Shown: positions 9,438-16,636 of the stretch, one piece after another | Numbering within the stretch: position 1 is the first letter of the stretch | Layout: each line of letters starts with the position of its first letter | Assembly: GCA_041483855.1 (NCBI GenBank) | Contig: JBGPGM010000001.1 | Location: forward strand, 1-26,069 | Length of the DNA: 26,069 nucleotides | Origin: Phycisphaerae bacterium | GTDB taxonomy: Bacteria > Planctomycetota > Phycisphaerae > Phycisphaerales > UBA1924 | Reading direction: 5' to 3' | Notes under the pieces: model-generated | Told to the model about the DNA's origin: nothing | What the model saw: only the letters and a program-made list of their open reading frames with translations | The model's database searches: none | Position numbers and translations under genes: made by a program

Positions 9438-9464
9438 GATCGGGCACCGCCGGGAGAGTCGCCA

Positions 9465-11570
9465 ATGCCCAGGACCCAGGAACACCGCGCTATCGCCATC
9501 GCGACGCCTCTCGACGACGACGTGCTCCTGCTGCGGAGCATGACCGCCCACGAGCAGCTCAGCCGCCTCTTCACGATCGAACTGGACCTGCTCAGCGAGG
9601 ACCACGAGATCAAGTTCGACGACCTGCTCGGCCAGAACTGCACCGTCCGGGTCCAGCAGCAGGGCGGCGGCACGCGCTTCTTCAACGGCTTCATCAGCCG
9701 CTTCGTCCAGACCACCAAGGGCGGCGGCATGGCCCTCTACCGCGCCACGCTCGTCCCCTGGCTGTGGATGCTGACCCGCAACGCCGACTGCCGCATCTTC
9801 CAGGAGATGACCGTCCCCGACATCATCAAGCAGGTCTTCCGCGACCACGGATTCTCCGACTTCGACGACACGCTGCAGGAGACCTACCGCAAGTGGGTCT
9901 ACTGCGTGCAGTACCGCGAGACGGACTTCAACTTCGTCAGCCGCCTGATGGAACAGGAGGGGATCTACTACTACTTTCGGCACGAGGACGGCAAGCACGT
10001 GATGGTGCTGTGCGACTCCTCCAGCAAGCACAAGGCCGCGCCCGGCTATGACAAGATTATCTACCGGCAGCCGGACAAGGTCCTCACCGACCGCGAGTTC
10101 ATCCACGACTGGTCCCACGAGCAGCAGGTCCGCACCGGCACCTACGTCCACCGCGACTTCAACTTCACCACCCCCAAGCAGAGCCTGGAGGCCAAGTCCA
10201 AGATCGACCGCAAGCACGCCGCGGCCTCCTTCGAGGTCTACGACTACCCGGGCGAGTACGACGTGGTCGCCGACGGCGAGAAAGCCGCCAAGGTCCGCAT
10301 CGAGGAGTTGCACACACAGTTCATCCAGGTGCGCGGCGAATCCGACTCGCGGGGTATCTCGGTTGGCTCCACCTTCCGGCTGGATCGGTACCCGCGCGCC
10401 GACCAGTGCGAGGTCGATTGGCTCGTGACGTCCACGGTCTGCCGGGCCCGCTCGGACGAGTTCGAGTCGCACGCCGCGGTGGGCGACTCGGCCCCGCGCT
10501 TCCTCTGTTCGTTCACCGTAATGGACAACAAGGAACAGTTCCGCCCCGCCCGCATCACACCCAAGCCCGTGATCTACGGCCCCCAGACCGCCTTTGTGGT
10601 CGGCAAGTCCGGCGAGGAGATCTGGACCGACGAGCACAGCCGCGTCAAGGTGCAGTTCCACTGGGACCGCGACGGCGAGGCCAACGAGAAGTCCTCGTGT
10701 TGGATCCGGGTCTCGCAGGCCTGGGCGGGCAAGAAGTGGGGGGCGATCTTCATCCCGAGGATCGGACACGAGGTGATCGTCGAGTTCCTCGAGGGCGACC
10801 CGGACCGGCCGATCATCACCGGCCGAGTCTACAACGCCGACACCAAGCCCCCCTACGACCTGCCCGCCCACGCGACGATGTCCACCCTCAAGTCGCTTAC
10901 GAGCAAGGGCGGCGGCGGTTTCAACGAGTTCCGCTTCGAGGACAAGAAGGGCGAGGAGCAGGTCTTCCTGCACGGCGAGAGGAACCTGGACATCCGCGTC
11001 AAGGCCGACCGCTTCGAGAACATCGGGCACGACCGCCACCTGGTCGTCGAGAACAAGAAGTTCGAGCACGTCAAGGTGGACCGGCACGAGAAGGTGGACA
11101 ACGACCACGTCGAGGTGATCGGCAACGACCGCAACCTCCAGGTCAAGGGCAAGGAAGCGATCGAGATCTCGGGCAGCCATTCCAACACCGTCGGCGGCGA
11201 CGTGATCGAGATCTTCAAGGCCAAGCACCACGAGGCGACAACCGCCGACTACTACCTCGTGGCGGACAACGTGGCCATCGAGGGCAAGACCAACATCACC
11301 CTGTACGTCGGCGACTCCTACATCGCCATCAACGCCGACGGCATCAAGATCGCCACGACCGGCAAGATCGTGCTCCAGTCCTCGGACGACACGTCGATCA
11401 AGTCCGACATGAACTTCAAGACCGAGTCCGGCATGGAGACCTCGGTGAAGGCCGGGACGGACCTGAAGCTCGAGGGCGGCGTCACCGCGGAGATGAAGTC
11501 CCCCAACACCACCGTCAAGGCGGACGCGACGCTCACGCTTAAGGGCAGCGCCTCCGTGATGATCAACTGA
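9465..11570 (+). CDS. vgrG: T6SS spike protein VgrG/TssI (gp27-gp5 core plus long beta-helix; no fused toxin domain)
   Basis: Start moved to ATG 9465. Motifs YCVQYRETDFNFVSRLMEQEGIYYYF, EIWTDEHSRVKVQFHWDR, CWIRVSQAWAG, IPRIGHEVIVEFLEGDPDRPIITGRVYN and NEFRFEDKKGEEQVFLHGERN. Ends in a repetitive beta-strand needle (...KGSASVMIN). Confidence 0.97.
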   Translation: MPRTQEHRAIAIATPLDDDVLLLRSMTAHEQLSRLFTIELDLLSEDHEIKFDDLLGQNCTVRVQQQGGGTRFFNGFISRFVQTTKGGGMALYRATLVPWLWMLTRNADCRIFQEMTVPDIIKQVFRDHGFSDFDDTLQETYRKWVYCVQYRETDFNFVSRLMEQEGIYYYFRHEDGKHVMVLCDSSSKHKAAPGYDKIIYRQPDKVLTDREFIHDWSHEQQVRTGTYVHRDFNFTTPKQSLEAKSKIDRKHAAASFEVYDYPGEYDVVADGEKAAKVRIEELHTQFIQVRGESDSRGISVGSTFRLDRYPRADQCEVDWLVTSTVCRARSDEFESHAAVGDSAPRFLCSFTVMDNKEQFRPARITPKPVIYGPQTAFVVGKSGEEIWTDEHSRVKVQFHWDRDGEANEKSSCWIRVSQAWAGKKWGAIFIPRIGHEVIVEFLEGDPDRPIITGRVYNADTKPPYDLPAHATMSTLKSLTSKGGGGFNEFRFEDKKGEEQVFLHGERNLDIRVKADRFENIGHDRHLVVENKKFEHVKVDRHEKVDNDHVEVIGNDRNLQVKGKEAIEISGSHSNTVGGDVIEIFKAKHHEATTADYYLVADNVAIEGKTNITLYVGDSYIAINADGIKIATTGKIVLQSSDDTSIKSDMNFKTESGMETSVKAGTDLKLEGGVTAEMKSPNTTVKADATLTLKGSASVMIN

Positions 11571-11590: not shown

Positions 11591-11980
11591 ATGGAGAAGA
11601 AGCCCGGAACAGCCCTGACCGCCGTCGCCCCCGCCGCGGTCACCGATGCGCTGGACGCCGACTCGGCCGACCCCGGCGAGGTGGCCGAGGTCAAGGCCGA
11701 GCAGCGCAAGAAGCAATCGGGCAAGTACGGCTCCAAGCAGGTCCCCGCCTACAAGCCGCCGGAGGACAAGGAAAAGAAGACGACGTGGATCGAGATCGAA
11801 CTGGTAGACCGCGACGGCAACCCGATCCCGAGCGAGCCCTACCGCATCGAGGACCCCGAGGGCCGCATCGTGGACGGAACGCTCGACGAGAAGGGATTCG
11901 CCCACCGGGACTGGATCGTCCCCGGCACCTGCAAGATCAGTTTCCCGAGGCTCGACCAGGACGCCTGGGCCAAGGCCTGA
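11591..11980 (+). CDS. Small vgrG-linked protein with C-terminal transthyretin/prealbumin-like beta domain (putative adaptor)
   Basis: SD GAGGA at 11576-11580; 20 bp after the vgrG stop; strong C/G-ending codons. Ala/Pro/Lys linker, then WIEIELVDRDGNPIPSEPYRIEDPEGRIVDGTLDEKG..GTCKISFP, the pattern of TTR-like/carboxypeptidase-regulatory-like domains. Confidence 0.75.
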   Translation: MEKKPGTALTAVAPAAVTDALDADSADPGEVAEVKAEQRKKQSGKYGSKQVPAYKPPEDKEKKTTWIEIELVDRDGNPIPSEPYRIEDPEGRIVDGTLDEKGFAHRDWIVPGTCKISFPRLDQDAWAKA

Positions 11981-12103: not shown

Positions 12104-12847
12104 ATGGCCGAGACCAAGAAGCCCAAGGACGACGTCAACAACAGCCCCGTCAACACGGGCATCGAGAACGACCTCGCCGACGAGAACGGGGAGTTCTACT
12201 ACTCCGCGCACGTGGTCAGCCAGGGCGAGTGCCTCATCCGGGTGTCCGCCGAGAACGGCTACTGGTGGGAGACTCTGTGGAACCACGCGGACAACGCCGA
12301 GCTGAAGAAGGGCCGGAAGAACCCCAACGTCCTGCTCCCGGAGGACCGCATCCGCGTGCCCAAGGTCCGGCTCAAGACCGAGGACGGCGCCACGGAACAG
12401 AAGCACAAGTTCAAGTGCAAGATCGAGCCGTCGATCCTGCGGCTGCGCGTCAGCGTCTTCGATGAGCCGCTCGCCAACAAGCCGTACAAGCTCGAGGTCG
12501 AGGGCAAACTGTACACCGGTACCACCAACGGCGACGGCCAGATCGAGCAGAAGGTCCCCTGCCGCGCCCGCGCCGGCCACCTGGTCGTCGGCGAGCCCCC
12601 CGAGGAGCGAGAGTACGACCTGCAGATCGGCGACCTGGACCCGCTCGACACGATCGCAGGCATCAAGGAGCGCCTCAACAACCTCGGCTACGCGGCCGGG
12701 CCCATCTGCGATTGGGACTATTTCAACAACTGGCCGGTCCCCGCCTTCCGCAAGGCCCTCCGCAAGTTCCAGCTCAACCACGACCTCAAGATCACCGGCA
12801 TCGTCGACAAGATGACCAAGGACGCCCTCCTCAAGACCGGCATCTGA
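12104..12847 (+). CDS. LysM-like + TTR-like + peptidoglycan-binding (PG_binding_1-like) protein, no signal peptide
   Basis: LysM-like HVVSQGECLIRVSAENG...LWNHADNAELKKGRKNPNVLLPEDRIRVP (about 12209-12361). Beta domain LRLRV..DEPLANKPYKLEVEG...GTTNGDG (about 12434-12625). PGBD-like IKERLNNLGY...ALRKFQLNHDLKITGIVDKMT (about 12638-12835). Confidence 0.8.
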   Translation: MAETKKPKDDVNNSPVNTGIENDLADENGEFYYSAHVVSQGECLIRVSAENGYWWETLWNHADNAELKKGRKNPNVLLPEDRIRVPKVRLKTEDGATEQKHKFKCKIEPSILRLRVSVFDEPLANKPYKLEVEGKLYTGTTNGDGQIEQKVPCRARAGHLVVGEPPEEREYDLQIGDLDPLDTIAGIKERLNNLGYAAGPICDWDYFNNWPVPAFRKALRKFQLNHDLKITGIVDKMTKDALLKTGI

Positions 12848-12890
12848 GCCGGTGCCCGTCCCCTCCCCTCCCTGTCCGCGGAGCCCCTGT

Positions 12891-15752
12891 ATGCTCGCAC
12901 GCGTTGCCAAGAACGACTACGACAACGAGAACGGCAAGACGTTCACTCCCCTGGACCGGCAGAGCTACCTGCCGATCGTGGATGCGCACTGCCACGTCTT
13001 CGGCCAGAGCCTCTCCGTCGGCGACAAGATCCGGGACGACTCCGACGCGACCCACGTGACGTTCATCAAGGGCGGCTCGGGCGGCTCGGTCAAGAAGCTC
13101 TTCAAGCCCACTGTCCTGATCAAGAAGCCCCCGACCCAGGTCCAGAGCCTCGTCGGCGACGCCAAGTCCCTGGCGGACAAGGCCCCGCCCGGCCTCATGG
13201 ACAAGGCCAAGGGCGCCGCGTCTTCTTTCCTCTCCTCCGCCGGCAAGGCGATGCCCAGCGTGAAGAAGGAGGACCTCGAGAAGGCGCAGAGCGTCGCCAA
13301 GGAGTTCGCCGACCGTCAGATCGGCGAGGTCCTCCAGAAGGTATACGCCCGCGGCGTCATCGAACTCCCACCGTCGGAGTGGCCGCCGCAGGCCACCACC
13401 ACGCTGGTCGGCGACCGCGTGTTCTTCGTCGTGATGCTCTCGGAACGCGCCAAGATCCATTCCTACGGGATCGGCTCCGAGAAGGCGGACCTCACCGAGA
13501 TCGCCTGGCTGGTCGGCCACATGGAGGCCGGGTTCGCCAAGTTCATCAAGTACTTCTTCGGTGATGACGGCGAGAACGCCGGCATCGTCCTCAACGGCGT
13601 GCCCAAGGAGGGAGGGACCGCCGTCGTCCCCCTCCTCCTGGACATGGGCTACACGCCGCTGGACGTCCCGCTGCCGCTGTTGGGCACGCTGGCCGCGTGG
13701 CTCGTCGGCCTGCCCAAGCCCGCGCCGGACCCGGACGGCTACTACAAGGCCGGCAAGGAGTTCCTCTGGTTCGACCGCAAGGGGCTCCAGTACACCTACG
13801 AGACGCTGGCCGACGTCGCCAGTCAGTACCCCTACCAGATCTGGCCGATGGTCCCCTTTGACCCGCGCCGGCCCGACGCGCTGAGCCACGTGAAGAAGGC
13901 TGTCAACGAGTTCGCCTTCCCCGGCGTCAAGCTCTACTCCCGCTGCGGCTGGGCACCCTACAACAACGCCGACGTCCACGGCCCCACGCACGGGCCCAAG
14001 CTCGATCAGCGCCTCGACGCCTTCTATGCCTACGCCGTTCAGGAAGACCTGCCCGTTCTCAACCACACCAGCCCGACGGGTTTCCCGCCCAACGCGGCCC
14101 TGGCCCTGCCCAAGGGCTATGACGGAGCGGATATGTACCACAGCCGCCTGCTCTACCCCGGGCGCGTCGGGATCGGACCGCTGCCGCTGGGGGCTCTGGA
14201 GGGGATCCTCAAGGACGTCGGGCAAGGAATGCTCGATGTCGCCGGGCTCCCGCCTCCCGAGGAACTGCTCAAGCAGGCCAAGGCCACGGGCTCGAAGATG
14301 CTCCAGGACGTGGGCGACCTGGCCAACCAGGCCAAGGATTTGAGCCAGGAGCACTTCGACTCCCTCGTGAGCGCGCTGGACAAGGCCCGGGCCAAGGGGC
14401 CGGCCGAGATCGAGCGACTCACCAGCCTCGCCGATCCCTCCAAACTCTCCGTGCAGGCCGTCCGCGACCAGCTCTCCGAGTACATTGCTCCCGAAACGCT
14501 CAGCAAGATCGCCGACAAGTTCAACCCCAAGCAGTTTTTCGGCCTCGCGTCCTGCATCAAGGGCCCGGACTTCCATCCCGTCAAGAACATGATCGACCCG
14601 CAGAAGCAGAAGGAGAACGCCGCCATCAACGCCGAGCAGCGCCGCAGCCCGCTCAAGGTCCTCTTCGACGCCTGCTGCAAGATCCTGGCCTTGATGTCGT
14701 GCTACGACGCGGCCAAGTACTGCCACTACGTCCAGCACACCGTCTCGCCCTACGCCTGGGAACCCGTCCTCAAGAAGTACCCCAAGCTCCGCCTCGACCT
14801 GGCCCACTGCGGGTCCGAGAAGAGCGTGATCACCCACTATGGCCTGGACAAGGACGAGCACGAAATCGGCAAGAATCCTACCGCCGCGGCCAAGAAGACG
14901 TGCGACGTCCTCAAGGATCAGATCAAGGACCTGCACGCGAACCCGTTCGTCGCCACCGGCGCACGCTTCAAGGACTACCTTTTCGCCCAGTGCGCCAAGG
15001 AACGCGGCATCATCGCCCTCTTCCAATACTTCGTTACCAGCGAGGCCACCATCGACCCCGCCAAGAAGGCCGCGGATAAGGTCACCGAGATGCTCATGAA
15101 GGTCCTGCCCGCGGTCTTCGCCAAGGTGCTCAAGCAGTTCACTCTCCAGCAGATCTACGATGGCGTGCGGGTCCAGGTGCCGGAGGTCCTCAAGGAAGAG
15201 CTGTGGCAGCAGTGGCTGGAGGACTGGGCCGACAAGTTCCCCAAGGACTGGATCACCAAGATCAAGGAACTGTGCGGCAAGTACGACAACGTCTATACGG
15301 ACATCTCCTACCTGACGGGCACCAGCAACGATGTCCACAAGCTACTGCTCGCCAAGATCGCCGACGATGCTTGCCCCGACACGCATCGGCGCGAGGGGTC
15401 CGACGCCGGCGTGGAAGACGAGAGCACCGACGGCTCCACCAAGGAGACCATCTTCGCCGAGCGACTCATGATCGGCACCGACTGGTACATGACCGCCATG
15501 GACAATGTCGGCCCCGACACTTTCTGGGAGCGCACCAAGTCCGTCGTCAACACCGACCACCCGCTCTGGGAGCGCTGGGCCAGCCGCAACTGCATCAACT
15601 TCATGAATCTCGGCAAGCGGATGGACGCGATGGAGAAGTGGTACAAGACCCGCAACATCCCTGACTCCAGCCGTCCCTCCTGGTGGCCAGCCGTCAAGCA
15701 CTACTACAAGGTCAAGGAGGAGAAGGGCGCCGCGGCCGCGGCCAAGGTTTGA
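12891..15752 (+). CDS. Very large amidohydrolase-superfamily (Amidohydro_2-like) protein with multiple insertions; putative T6SS cargo effector
   Basis: Start moved to ATG 12891 (GGAG upstream). Motifs in canonical order: IVDAHCH (HxH at 12987-12995), PFDPRR, GVKLY (13923), PVLNH (H at 14064), KYPKLRLDLAHCG (H at 14805), NVYTDISY (15288) and LMIGTDWY (D at 15480). 953 aa. The effector role is inferred from position only. Confidence 0.8.
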   Translation: MLARVAKNDYDNENGKTFTPLDRQSYLPIVDAHCHVFGQSLSVGDKIRDDSDATHVTFIKGGSGGSVKKLFKPTVLIKKPPTQVQSLVGDAKSLADKAPPGLMDKAKGAASSFLSSAGKAMPSVKKEDLEKAQSVAKEFADRQIGEVLQKVYARGVIELPPSEWPPQATTTLVGDRVFFVVMLSERAKIHSYGIGSEKADLTEIAWLVGHMEAGFAKFIKYFFGDDGENAGIVLNGVPKEGGTAVVPLLLDMGYTPLDVPLPLLGTLAAWLVGLPKPAPDPDGYYKAGKEFLWFDRKGLQYTYETLADVASQYPYQIWPMVPFDPRRPDALSHVKKAVNEFAFPGVKLYSRCGWAPYNNADVHGPTHGPKLDQRLDAFYAYAVQEDLPVLNHTSPTGFPPNAALALPKGYDGADMYHSRLLYPGRVGIGPLPLGALEGILKDVGQGMLDVAGLPPPEELLKQAKATGSKMLQDVGDLANQAKDLSQEHFDSLVSALDKARAKGPAEIERLTSLADPSKLSVQAVRDQLSEYIAPETLSKIADKFNPKQFFGLASCIKGPDFHPVKNMIDPQKQKENAAINAEQRRSPLKVLFDACCKILALMSCYDAAKYCHYVQHTVSPYAWEPVLKKYPKLRLDLAHCGSEKSVITHYGLDKDEHEIGKNPTAAAKKTCDVLKDQIKDLHANPFVATGARFKDYLFAQCAKERGIIALFQYFVTSEATIDPAKKAADKVTEMLMKVLPAVFAKVLKQFTLQQIYDGVRVQVPEVLKEELWQQWLEDWADKFPKDWITKIKELCGKYDNVYTDISYLTGTSNDVHKLLLAKIADDACPDTHRREGSDAGVEDESTDGSTKETIFAERLMIGTDWYMTAMDNVGPDTFWERTKSVVNTDHPLWERWASRNCINFMNLGKRMDAMEKWYKTRNIPDSSRPSWWPAVKHYYKVKEEKGAAAAAKV

Positions 15753-15755
15753 TCG

Positions 15756-15828
15756 CTCGGGCGAGCCCCGCCGCCGAGCAGACGCGGGCATCCGCCGACC
15801 CCCATGGCGGACGCCTTCCGGGTACCAT
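15756..15828 (+). promoter_or_regulatory. Two hairpins plus a TAnnnT -10 candidate separating the T6SS block from downstream genes
   Basis: gctcgg/ccgagc stem (15755-15779), tccgcc/ggcgga stem (15791-15811) and TACCAT at 15823-15828. Confidence 0.3.
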
Positions 15829-15874
15829 TGTCTGTTGCCCGGCATCCCCGCGATCGGTCCAGCGGAGCCGCCCC

Positions 15875-16636
15875 ATGCCACCCTCACCCGTCCCCATCGC
15901 CGCCCCACGACCTGCCACCAGGCTCTACGACGGCGACGCCGACCTGCTCGTGCGCTCCGAGCAGTTCCCCGACCGTATCAGCCTGCTCAGTGCCGGGCCC
16001 GCCGGCGCGGGCGCCGCCTCCAGCACGCCCGGCGCCGAACGAATCCGCATCCTCTGGGGCCAGGACATGCTGCGCGACATCCTCGATGGGCGCTACCGGT
16101 CCGTCGTGTGCGGCGTTAACGACGCCGACAACTCCCACGGCGTTATCGCCCAACTCGTCAGCCTTGTTCCCACCAGCCAGTGGTCCGCGCGGGCGGTCAC
16201 CTCGTTCGCCAGGATGTTCCAGGAATCGGTGGCCGTGCACGCCGCGCACGACCGCGAGCCGTATGTCCTGAAATACGATCTCGATAGCCTGCTGATCCTG
16301 GCGCTGCTGCGCCCCAAGGGGCGGGACCATTTCACGATCGAGGATCTGTCGCGCGGTTTCGCCACGATCAGCCGGATGCTGGCGGACCGGCGCGAGCGGC
16401 TCCCCGTCGCGAGCGTTTCCTTCCTCAACGCCCGCGCCAACCGCCTTCTCGCCTCCGAGCCCGGCAAGCAGGCCGCCGAGCCTTCCTTCGAATCCGTCCT
16501 CCGCACCATGTACGACGCCGGGTTCCGCGGCGACGTCTACGCGGCCCCTGCCATGTGGCAGTTCGCCCACGTCGGTGTCTTCCCCTCCTACCCCTTCCCC
16601 GAGGGACTGGAACGGATGCGCAGCGGCAGTTCCTGA
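15875..16636 (+). CDS. Hypothetical protein, possible divergent macrodomain (DarG/TARG1-like) fold
   Basis: Start at ATG 15875 (GGAG 7 nt upstream). RIRILWGQDML...VVCGVNDADNSHGVIAQL and ...LPVASVSFLNARANRL follow the strand/loop pattern of macrodomains. The CDS is well supported; the fold is tentative. Confidence 0.6.
   Translation: MPPSPVPIAAPRPATRLYDGDADLLVRSEQFPDRISLLSAGPAGAGAASSTPGAERIRILWGQDMLRDILDGRYRSVVCGVNDADNSHGVIAQLVSLVPTSQWSARAVTSFARMFQESVAVHAAHDREPYVLKYDLDSLLILALLRPKGRDHFTIEDLSRGFATISRMLADRRERLPVASVSFLNARANRLLASEPGKQAAEPSFESVLRTMYDAGFRGDVYAAPAMWQFAHVGVFPSYPFPEGLERMRSGSS

What the first reader, a model, noticed from the sequence alone, without database searches (positions are those of the whole stretch)
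12104..12847. Cytoplasmically made protein with two cell-wall-binding-type modules and no catalytic domain or export signal
Seen: an acidic N-terminal tail, then LysM-like, TTR-like and PGBD-like domains, with no hydrophobic signal. Established: LysM and PG_binding_1 bind peptidoglycan, but LysM-like folds are also structural baseplate parts in contractile injection systems (T4 gp53, P2 gpX). Inference: either a T6SS-delivered targeting subunit that tethers the amidohydrolase to prey cell wall, or an extra spike/baseplate component. Either would be unusual for a T6SS.
Basis: partly seen in the sequence, partly recalled or inferred. Interest (0 to 1): 0.65.

Follow-up and report, generated by a model that had tools for sequence, protein, structure and literature searches.

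The report
LysM/PG-binding cargo partner of T6SS spike
The 247-residue gene is real and belongs to a large unnamed family of signal-less LysM + beta-sandwich + peptidoglycan-binding proteins that sit between a type VI secretion spike (VgrG) and a changing set of big toxin-like proteins, a loading or co-delivered partner role that has already been shown for LysM proteins in other bacteria.

Summary
ORF 12104-12847(+) encodes a 247-aa protein with:
- a disordered acidic tail (aa 1-33, net charge -5);
- a LysM fold (aa 34-85);
- a conserved linker;
- a six-strand beta-sandwich homologous to the TTR/CarboxypepD_reg-like domain of the neighbouring 129-aa gene;
- a PG_binding_1 domain (Pfam E 2e-7).
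It has no hydrophobic segment.

It belongs to a large unnamed family found in several phyla (4,473 representatives at E<=1e-30, including some peptidoglycan-binding repeat proteins).

Family members typically follow a VgrG, or another protein, that ends in the same TTR-like domain. They precede large, mutually unrelated, signal-less proteins. Natural fusions exist of LysM to cargo, of the whole protein to cargo, and of TTR carrier to sandwich-PGB. All 7 loci with a homologue of the amidohydrolase have this family directly upstream. In the phylum sample, 16 of 18 genomes with a full-length member have TssC, against 96 of 401 overall.

Wang et al. 2023 (PMC10673891) showed that a stand-alone LysM protein bridges VgrG and its effector, and listed PG_binding_1 in vgrG loci. 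Myxococcus TsxE is a LysM + amidohydrolase-2 T6SS effector (PMC5801462).

Verdict: a split, TsxE-like cargo module, a new variant of a known kind. All earlier scan notes come from this same window.

The parts
9462..11570 (+). vgrG (702 aa from the ATG at 9462): gp27/gp5-type spike. It ends right after the needle, with no C-terminal extension.
   Evidence: Phage_GPD E 2e-106, Gp5_trimer_C, Phage_base_V; TIGR03361 E 6e-201.
11591..11980 (+). 129-aa gene: a detached VgrG C-terminal extension (Ala/Pro/acidic linker plus a TTR/CarboxypepD_reg-like beta domain at about aa 64-129).
   Evidence: It aligns end to end with the C-termini of longer VgrGs in L003, L005, L039, L052, L053, L059, L060 and L062, and with stand-alone 126-142-aa genes in L001, L007, L040, L077, L078 and L080.
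12104..12202 (+). Acidic, disordered N-terminal tail (aa 1-33). It is seen in the four closest homologues (P0001, P0003, P0004, P0006), all of which pair with an amidohydrolase.
   Evidence: pLDDT 45-53; net charge -5; alignment A2; contexts.
12203..12358 (+). LysM-fold domain (aa 34-85), with an extra helix and a conserved N-P-N motif before the last strand.
   Evidence: AF2 secondary structure; Foldseek hits to LysM domains; Pfam LysM in 32 of 85 members; PDB profile hit to phage phiCD508 gp61 tail tube initiator LysM, E 3e-7.
12359..12427 (+). Conserved linker (aa 86-108) with invariant H101 and F103 and near-invariant T97. It travels with the LysM domain in fusion proteins.
   Evidence: Alignments A1/A2/A3; pLDDT about 85 without regular secondary structure.
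12428..12631 (+). Six-strand beta-sandwich (aa 109-176), homologous to the beta domain of the 129-aa gene.
   Evidence: AF2 strands at 110-174, pLDDT >90; hhalign A5 against A4, 90.9%, E 1e-6; generic Ig/MG-like Foldseek hits.
12650..12844 (+). PG_binding_1 three-helix domain (aa 183-247).
   Evidence: Pfam PF01471 E 2.3e-7; 85 of 85 members hit it; PDB profile hits to SleB, CtpB and L,D-transpeptidase PG-binding domains.
12891..15752 (+). Giant Amidohydro_2-type protein (953 aa from ATG 12891; the ORF is open from 12852). It is the presumed cargo effector.
   Evidence: Pfam PF04909 E 1.5e-6. Homologues are 41-48% identical, and their N-termini align from the methionine at 12891. All 7 homologue loci have the LysM/PGB family gene directly upstream.

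Best explanation
The gene encodes a co-delivered loading partner (adaptor or co-effector) of a T6SS cargo module that is split into four genes: VgrG, its detached TTR-like C-terminal domain (129 aa), this LysM-sandwich-PGB protein, and a TsxE-like amidohydrolase.

Inferred mechanism: the LysM domain plus its conserved linker docks non-covalently on the TTR-like domain that ends the spike. The sandwich and PG_binding_1 part, and in this subclade the acidic tail, hold the amidohydrolase. The whole stack is fired with the spike. Once in the prey periplasm, the PG-binding modules probably keep the enzyme on the sacculus.

Shown here: the domain architecture, the conserved gene order, the variety of partner proteins, the natural fusions, and genome-level co-occurrence with T6SS.
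Shown by others for other LysM proteins: LysM-dependent binding of an effector to VgrG.
Inferred only: which domain binds what, secretion of this protein, and peptidoglycan binding.
For: 1. Synteny. VgrG, then a 126-142-aa TTR gene (or the same domain fused to the VgrG C-terminus), then a family member, then a large protein. This is seen in L001/L002, L003, L005, L007, L078 and L080, and in 8 of 29 full-length matches of the phylum sample.
2. A more general rule. In 22 of those 29 matches the neighbour carries a p129-like or CarboxypepD_reg domain, whether or not it is a VgrG.
3. The partners are polymorphic. At least 7 mutually unrelated downstream families occur, including Amidohydro_2, TIG+PLD, beta-lactamase-like and OmpA-like proteins. 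None of the N-termini inspected shows a signal peptide.
4. Rosetta-stone fusions:
- LysM+linker alone sits at the N-terminus of 648- and 625-aa proteins just after a VgrG-TTR in L005.
- The whole family protein is fused to the N-terminus of a 976-aa protein in L057. Homologues of that protein's remainder are separate genes in VgrG loci L059, L060 and L062.
- LysM-less forms have a TTR carrier domain fused directly to sandwich-PGB (L063-L068). This is the arrangement expected if LysM is the TTR-docking joint.
5. The amidohydrolase family is preceded by the family in 7 of 7 loci. Two homologues also carry their own C-terminal PG_binding_1.
6. TssC is present in 16 of 18 genomes with a full-length member, against 96 of 401 in the sample.
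7. Literature. The stand-alone LysM protein Kalk_10460 is required for co-immunoprecipitation of VgrG with its effector, and deleting the LysM domain of BRPE_05220 abolishes VgrG binding (PMC10673891). TsxE, a LysM+AH2 protein, is a T6SS effector whose victims round up (PMC5801462).
Against: - No experiment exists on this family, and no multimer model could be run.
- 21 of the 29 full-length matches in the phylum sample are not next to a VgrG. Two genomes with full-length members (G054 at 92% and G165 at 93% completeness) showed no TssC. A T6SS-independent role for part of the family is therefore not excluded.
- The domain-to-partner assignment rests only on fusion logic, largely from related genomes of one family (f27).
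- No immunity gene was recognised next to the amidohydrolase.
- The window comes from a 59% complete MAG.
Confidence: 0.6

Rival explanations
1. It is purely a targeting subunit. It is delivered with the amidohydrolase and binds prey peptidoglycan, but it is not needed to load the enzyme on VgrG; the enzyme or the TTR domain does that.
For: The protein has two domains of peptidoglycan-binding families. Partner proteins often carry their own PG-binding modules (OmpA-like in L001; PG_binding_1 at the C-terminus of P0138 and P0139; hemopexin/OmpA/PG_binding_3 in L071 and L074). Victims of TsxE round up. In EAEC, a TTR domain at the VgrG C-terminus binds its effector directly (discussed in PMC10673891).
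Against: LysM+linker alone is fused to the cargo N-terminus right after VgrG-TTR. LysM is lost exactly where the TTR carrier is fused covalently. LysM proteins were shown to be needed for VgrG binding.
Confidence: 0.17
2. It is a non-secreted cytoplasmic adaptor or chaperone, like DUF4123, DUF1795 or DUF2169 proteins. It stabilises and loads the effector but stays behind.
For: It has the typical adaptor position between vgrG and the effector, and it pairs with many effector families.
Against: The whole protein, or its LysM part, is found fused to the N-terminus of cargo proteins, so in those cases it must travel with the cargo. PG-binding modules have no obvious ligand in the producer cytoplasm. 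No Pfam match to known adaptor families.
Confidence: 0.1
3. It is a structural spike or baseplate protein of this T6SS, the counterpart of LysM proteins such as P2 gpX, T4 gp53 or the eCIS LysM protein.
For: The best full-domain PDB sequence match of the LysM profile is a phage tail tube initiator, phiCD508 gp61, E 3e-7. Baseplate LysM proteins of phages and of several contractile injection systems appear among the fold hits at ranks 29-50.
Against: Canonical cell-wall and chitin LysM domains rank higher by fold. There are up to 7 matches per genome. The family occurs in orphan vgrG islands, has polymorphic partners, and is missing from most T6SS-positive genomes of the phylum sample. Wang et al. 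place T6SS-linked LysM domains apart from eCIS and phage ones in a tree.
Confidence: 0.05
4. It has a function unrelated to T6SS (for example a cell-wall-associated complex with TTR-repeat proteins exported by another route), and the vgrG linkage is secondary.
For: 21 of 29 full-length matches in the phylum sample are not adjacent to vgrG. Many lie beside TTR-repeat proteins with a Cys-rich N-terminal motif. Two genomes with full-length members had no TssC hit.
Against: No signal peptide was seen on the family members, nor on the partner and TTR-repeat carrier N-termini inspected, except the L038 neighbour, which has a hydrophobic N-terminus. 16 of 18 genomes with a full-length member have T6SS. 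In the window itself the gene lies inside a complete tssC-to-vgrG cluster.
Confidence: 0.08

Closest known systems
Stand-alone LysM proteins of vgrG loci (e.g. Kalk_10460 of Ketobacter alkanivorans) and the LysM and PG_binding_1 'conserved domain families' of Wang et al. 2023, Commun Biol (PMC10673891)
   Same: Both are encoded between vgrG and a toxin. Both occur as a separate gene or fused to the toxin N-terminus. Both contain a LysM domain and lack a signal peptide and a catalytic domain. The proposed role is the same: linking the effector to VgrG.
   Different: This protein combines LysM, a TTR-like sandwich and PG_binding_1 in one small protein. It follows a detached VgrG TTR domain. It lies in a non-proteobacterial context (named homologues are from Planctomycetota, Acidobacteriota and Desulfuromonadales), whereas that paper found vgrG-linked PG_binding_1 only in gamma-proteobacteria. 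Its partners are mostly proteins of unknown family rather than Lyz-like, NlpD or NlpC/P60. Sequence homology to Kalk_10460 was not tested.
TsxE (MXAN_5572) of Myxococcus xanthus, a T6SS effector with LysM and amidohydrolase-2 domains encoded after vgrG2 (PMC5801462)
   Same: The same pair of modules (LysM and Amidohydro_2) lies directly downstream of a vgrG. The cell wall is the suggested target.
   Different: In the window the modules are two genes, and the LysM protein also has a sandwich and PG_binding_1. The amidohydrolase is about 950 aa. No TsxI-like immunity gene was recognised. Direct homology to TsxE was not tested.
VgrG C-terminal TTR 'internal adaptor' (EAEC VgrG1-Tle1, PDB 6sjl/6sk0)
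   Same: A TTR-like beta domain at the end of the spike recruits cargo. The 129-aa gene is that kind of extension, split off.
   Different: Here the TTR-like domain is a separate gene, and a LysM protein is interposed between it and the cargo. The 6sjl hit in the fold search is not significant (rank 42, rmsd 15.8).
Baseplate LysM proteins of contractile tails and eCIS (P2 gpX, phiCD508 gp61, PVC/AlgoCIS/Anabaena CIS LysM subunits)
   Same: A LysM fold is used inside the producer as a protein-protein module next to a gp27/gp5-type hub-spike. The profile hit to gp61 has E 3e-7.
   Different: Those are single-copy structural parts tied to the tube initiator and hub. This family is multi-copy, linked to cargo, and carries an added sandwich and PGB.

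Membership tests
PG_binding_1 (PF01471) | Match to the Pfam model above the gathering score | tested here: met
   31.3 bits against a cut-off of 23, aa 187-242; 85 of 85 family members match; three-helix model at pLDDT about 90.
LysM (PF01476) | Match to the Pfam model | tested here: inconclusive
   The window protein has no hit at E<=1. However, 32 of 85 aligned homologues hit it (best 7e-9), and the family profile hits PDB LysM chains at E 3e-7 to 1e-5.
LysM (PF01476) | beta-alpha-alpha-beta fold | tested here: met
   AF2 elements E35-37, H44-51, H55-59, H62-70, E82-84. The domain-only model retrieves LysM domains almost exclusively (TM to target up to 0.79). It has one extra helix.
LysM (PF01476) | Binds peptidoglycan or chitin glycan | not testable with these tools
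   Needs a sacculus or oligosaccharide binding assay.
TTR-like / CarboxypepD_reg (PF13620) beta-sandwich | Sequence or fold match to the family | tested here: inconclusive
   The window protein has no Pfam hit. Foldseek gives generic Ig/MG/invasin hits at E about 1e-2 and one phage CarboxypepD_reg protein. hhalign to the p129 family gives 90.9%, and p129-like repeats hit PF13620.
vgrG-locus LysM adaptor/co-effector (Wang et al. 2023) | Encoded in a vgrG locus upstream of a toxin, occurring both stand-alone and fused | tested here: met
   Window order is vgrG, 129-aa gene, this gene, amidohydrolase. Fused forms occur in L005, L001 and L057.
vgrG-locus LysM adaptor/co-effector (Wang et al. 2023) | Required for the VgrG-effector interaction | not testable with these tools
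   Needs co-immunoprecipitation or a multimer model. Only fusion logic is available.
vgrG-locus LysM adaptor/co-effector (Wang et al. 2023) | Sequence homology to the tested proteins (Kalk_10460, BRPE_05220) | not tested
TsxE-type LysM + amidohydrolase-2 T6SS effector | LysM and Amidohydro_2 modules directly downstream of vgrG | tested here: met
   Both modules are present, but on two adjacent genes. The pairing is conserved in 7 of 7 loci.
TsxE-type LysM + amidohydrolase-2 T6SS effector | Adjacent immunity gene and T6SS-dependent killing | not testable with these tools
   The downstream 317-aa ORF has no family hit.
Classical T6SS adaptors (DUF4123, DUF1795, DUF2169) | Pfam match | tested here: not met
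   No such hit at E<=1.
Baseplate LysM subunit (gpX / gp53 / eCIS LysM) | Single-copy structural gene that co-occurs with every system | tested here: not met
   1-7 matches per genome. Only 22 of 401 genomes have the family, while 96 of 401 have TssC. Partners are polymorphic.

The most novel reading that the evidence does not exclude
The TTR-like domain and the LysM-sandwich-PGB protein may form a general plug-and-socket joint that is not restricted to VgrG. Three observations point this way.
- Carriers made of a Cys-rich (zinc-ribbon-like) N-terminal motif plus 1-6 TTR repeats could present several sockets.
- Some cargo proteins themselves end in a TTR domain followed by a second family gene (G214 loci L046 and L048).
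- LysM-less forms fuse the carrier directly to sandwich-PGB.
Together these would allow chained or multivalent loading of several effectors on one T6SS shot, and would define a new class of non-VgrG cargo carriers.
Probability: 0.2. Interest if true: 0.65.

Novelty: new variant of a known kind. Interest (0 to 1): 0.4.

Why it matters
The gene gives a concrete annotation to a very large family that databases label 'hypothetical', 'peptidoglycan-binding protein' or, wrongly, 'N-acetylmuramoyl-L-alanine amidase'. The family can serve as a marker for T6SS cargo in phyla where effectors are almost unknown: Planctomycetota, Acidobacteriota, Myxococcota and others. Genes directly downstream of a family member are candidate effectors, and most of them belong to no known family. 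The natural split and fused forms also suggest which domain docks on the spike and which holds the cargo, which can be tested directly. For the window itself, the result is mostly a placement into known biology.

Tried and rejected
- The search for related loci with alignments A1 and A2 failed because no stretch was conserved enough. With the single protein it returned only one Pyrinomonadaceae contig.
- Foldseek with the whole model, against PDB and against the viral library, gave only weak generic beta-sandwich hits and no protein with the same three-domain architecture.
- Cluster look-ups gave no informative names or taxa.
- The phiCD508 paper text does not discuss the gp61 LysM domain.
- Rejected: immunity protein. 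The gene lies upstream of the effector, is conserved across unrelated effectors and is fused to effector N-termini.
- Rejected: exported cell-wall protein of the producer. No signal peptide is present in the window protein or across the family.
- Rejected: enzyme. There is no catalytic domain, and the 'amidase' names given by one source are not supported by Pfam.
- My crude GC3-based gene caller miscalls some genes; for example, it missed the window's vgrG. Neighbour counts therefore rest on the HMM and phmmer hits, not on its gene boundaries.

Full report
**The observation.** ORF 12104-12847(+) is a 247-aa ATG-started frame. It has the same high third-position GC as its neighbours (0.96). It has 144 homologues at E<=1e-3, the best non-self hit at 9e-79, so it is a real gene.

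Pfam finds PG_binding_1 at aa 187-242 (E 2.3e-7, above the cut-off) and nothing else. NCBIfam adds only a sub-threshold SleB match over the same domain.

An AlphaFold2 model built on 85 homologues (pLDDT 84, pTM 0.73) shows:
- a disordered segment at aa 1-30;
- a beta-alpha-alpha-alpha-beta unit at aa 35-84;
- a confident but irregular linker;
- a six-strand sandwich at aa 110-174;
- a three-helix bundle at aa 184-246.

The N-terminal unit is a LysM fold. 32 of 85 members hit Pfam LysM (best 7e-9). The family profile hits LysM chains in the PDB. A model of aa 28-108 alone retrieves almost only LysM domains.

The sandwich has only generic Ig/MG-like structural neighbours. It is, however, homologous to the beta domain of the adjacent 129-aa gene (hhalign 90.9%, E 1e-6). 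Repeats of that domain in related loci match Pfam CarboxypepD_reg. 'TTR-like' is therefore acceptable as a loose label.

The tail (aa 1-33) has net charge -5. No 15-residue window exceeds a Kyte-Doolittle mean of 0.71. Most homologues start 2-6 residues before the first LysM strand, so the family as a whole has no signal peptide.

**Surroundings in the window.** The gene lies at the end of a tssC ... tagJ(ImpE)-tssF-tssG-clpV-vgrG cluster. The VgrG (9462-11570) stops right after its needle.

The 129-aa gene (11591-11980) aligns end to end with the C-terminal extensions of longer VgrGs from eight other loci, and with stand-alone 126-142-aa genes in six loci. It is therefore a split-off VgrG C-terminal linker plus TTR-like domain, as another note on this window had guessed.

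Downstream, 44 bp after the stop, starts an Amidohydro_2-type protein of about 953 aa. The ATG at 12891 matches the N-termini of its homologues.

**Related loci.** In independent metagenome and MAG contigs the same order recurs: VgrG, then the TTR gene (or VgrG with that domain fused), then a family member, then a large protein. This is seen in L001/L002, L003, L005 (an orphan vgrG island), L007, L078 and L080.

In a sample of 401 genomes of the window's phylum, 22 have a match to the family and 18 have a full-length one. None of the genomes sampled from the window's own family, order or class has a match. TssC is present in 96 of 401 genomes overall, but in 16 of the 18 with a full-length member. 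These genomes are related to each other, so this is not a statistical test.

Of the 29 full-length matches:
- 8 lie directly after a VgrG that carries the TTR-like end;
- 14 more lie beside a non-VgrG protein with p129-like or CarboxypepD_reg domains;
- 7 are uninformative or cut by contig ends.

The constant neighbour is therefore the TTR-like domain rather than VgrG as such.

The large downstream proteins fall into at least seven mutually unrelated families. These include Amidohydro_2, a TIG-repeat protein with a PLD domain, a beta-lactamase-like protein and an OmpA-like protein; most have no Pfam match at all. None of the N-termini inspected has a signal peptide.

Conversely, every locus found with a homologue of the window's amidohydrolase has a family member directly upstream. 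That is 7 of 7: the window, L007, L077, L078, L080, L081 and L082. The last of these lies beside tssM/tssL/tssK in a Hydrogenedentes MAG.

**Natural fusions.** Three kinds were found.
- LysM+linker alone forms the N-terminus of 648- and 625-aa proteins immediately after a VgrG-TTR in L005, and of a 249-aa protein ahead of a 760-aa toxin-like protein in L001.
- The whole three-domain protein is fused to the N-terminus of a 976-aa protein in L057. The rest of that protein is homologous to separately encoded proteins in VgrG-plus-family loci L059, L060 and L062.
- LysM-less proteins (L063-L068) consist of a Cys-rich N-terminal motif, a p129-like TTR domain, the family's sandwich and PG_binding_1.

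Two amidohydrolase homologues carry PG_binding_1 at their own C-terminus and are still preceded by a family gene.

By Rosetta-stone reasoning, LysM+linker is the part that connects to the TTR-ended carrier: it is kept when only a connection is needed, and dropped when the carrier is fused covalently. The sandwich-PGB part goes with the cargo or its target. Because the protein, or parts of it, is covalently attached to cargo in some genomes, it most likely travels with the cargo.

**Comparison with what is known.** Wang et al. 2023 (PMC10673891) screened 130,825 vgrG loci. They reported six domain families, among them LysM and PG_binding_1, that occur as stand-alone genes, at VgrG C-termini or at toxin N-termini. 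They showed that the stand-alone LysM protein Kalk_10460 is needed for co-immunoprecipitation of its VgrG with the downstream toxin, and that deleting the LysM domain of BRPE_05220 abolishes VgrG binding. They also noted that eCIS have a LysM core component that canonical T6SS lack, and that T6SS-linked LysM domains form branches separate from eCIS and phage ones.

Troselj et al. 2018 (PMC5801462) showed that M. xanthus TsxE is a T6SS-dependent toxin with an immunity partner, and that its victims round up. TsxE is encoded after vgrG2 and is predicted to contain LysM and amidohydrolase-2 domains.

What I did not find described:
- the specific three-domain family. A profile search finds 4,473 representatives at E<=1e-30, some of which are PG_binding_1 repeat proteins. 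The protein atlas places look-alike clusters in Myxococcota, Pseudomonadota and Acidobacteriota;
- its regular pairing with a TTR-like domain;
- its occurrence outside Proteobacteria, where the 2023 survey saw no vgrG-linked PG_binding_1.

**Mechanism and rivals.** I put about 0.6 on a co-delivered loading partner. In this model LysM+linker docks on the (here detached) TTR end of VgrG. The sandwich, PGB and tail hold the amidohydrolase. The peptidoglycan-binding modules then act in the prey periplasm.

The rivals are:
- a pure targeting subunit that is not needed for loading (0.17);
- a non-secreted adaptor (0.10);
- a T6SS-independent role for the family (0.08);
- a structural baseplate or spike part (0.05).

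The structural reading is disfavoured for four reasons: the family is multi-copy, it occurs in orphan islands, it pairs with polymorphic partners, and it is missing from most T6SS-positive genomes in the sample. This holds even though the single best full-domain PDB sequence match of the LysM profile is a phage tail tube initiator.

Untested here: any physical interaction, secretion, peptidoglycan binding, and direct homology to Kalk_10460 or TsxE.

**Verdict.** I rate it a new variant of a known kind, of moderate interest, mainly as a marker for finding T6SS cargo in poorly studied phyla. A more speculative lead is that TTR-to-LysM joints may chain several cargos or use non-VgrG carriers. All earlier notes returned by the scan's index come from this same window; nothing shows the family was noted before on other DNA.

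Noticed in passing
L044:8792-10288(-), L046:7301-8026(+), L058:1513-2409(+), L061:3618-4433(-), L063:7619-8446(+), L066:7069-7950(-), L067:1773-2600(+), L068:7434-8444(+): Non-VgrG neighbours and LysM-less relatives of the family share an N-terminal Cys-rich motif (P-W-x2-C ... C-P-x-C-G ... W-T ... T-R-x-F). It is followed by 1-6 p129-like TTR repeats. The one carrier scanned (L044) and the LysM-less proteins scanned give no Pfam hit over the motif. It may be a zinc-ribbon carrier domain.
   Followed up: partly
L046:7301-14870 and L048:7299-17830 (both genome G214): The units recur in series: TTR protein, then a family member, then a protein of about 1,800 aa ending in a p129-like TTR domain, then a second family member, then (in L048) a 1,014-aa protein. 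This suggests chained cargo modules.
   Followed up: partly
window 11591-11980: The 129-aa gene is a detached VgrG C-terminal extension. It aligns with the last 130 residues of longer VgrGs in eight loci, including the acidic 'A-D-x-A-D-P-G-E-V' linker in L053.
   Followed up: yes
window 12852-12891: The 966-aa ORF is listed from a GTG at 12852, but homologue N-termini align from the ATG at 12891 (953 aa).
   Followed up: yes
P0138, P0139 (L081:1419-4334): Some amidohydrolase homologues carry their own C-terminal PG_binding_1 and are still preceded by a family gene. The enzyme therefore probably acts at the cell wall.
   Followed up: partly
L047:3960-8003(-) and L051:8713-10377(+): One partner family combines nine TIG repeats with a PLD-like phospholipase domain, which suggests a lipase-type T6SS cargo.
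   Followed up: no
window 15683-16636 and genome G000: No immunity-like gene was recognised after the amidohydrolase; the next ORF (317 aa) has no Pfam or NCBIfam hit. In the six same-family genomes sampled, the LysM/PGB family was found in none and TssC in one. The island may therefore be acquired, or the contig mis-binned; the MAG is 59% complete. A second, divergent TssC-like gene lies on G000:C78:3203-4108.
   Followed up: no
L007:7429-8394, L078:6820-7784: In the two closest loci, the amidohydrolase is followed by DUF6931 and PAAR genes. These are absent at the corresponding place in the window.
   Followed up: no
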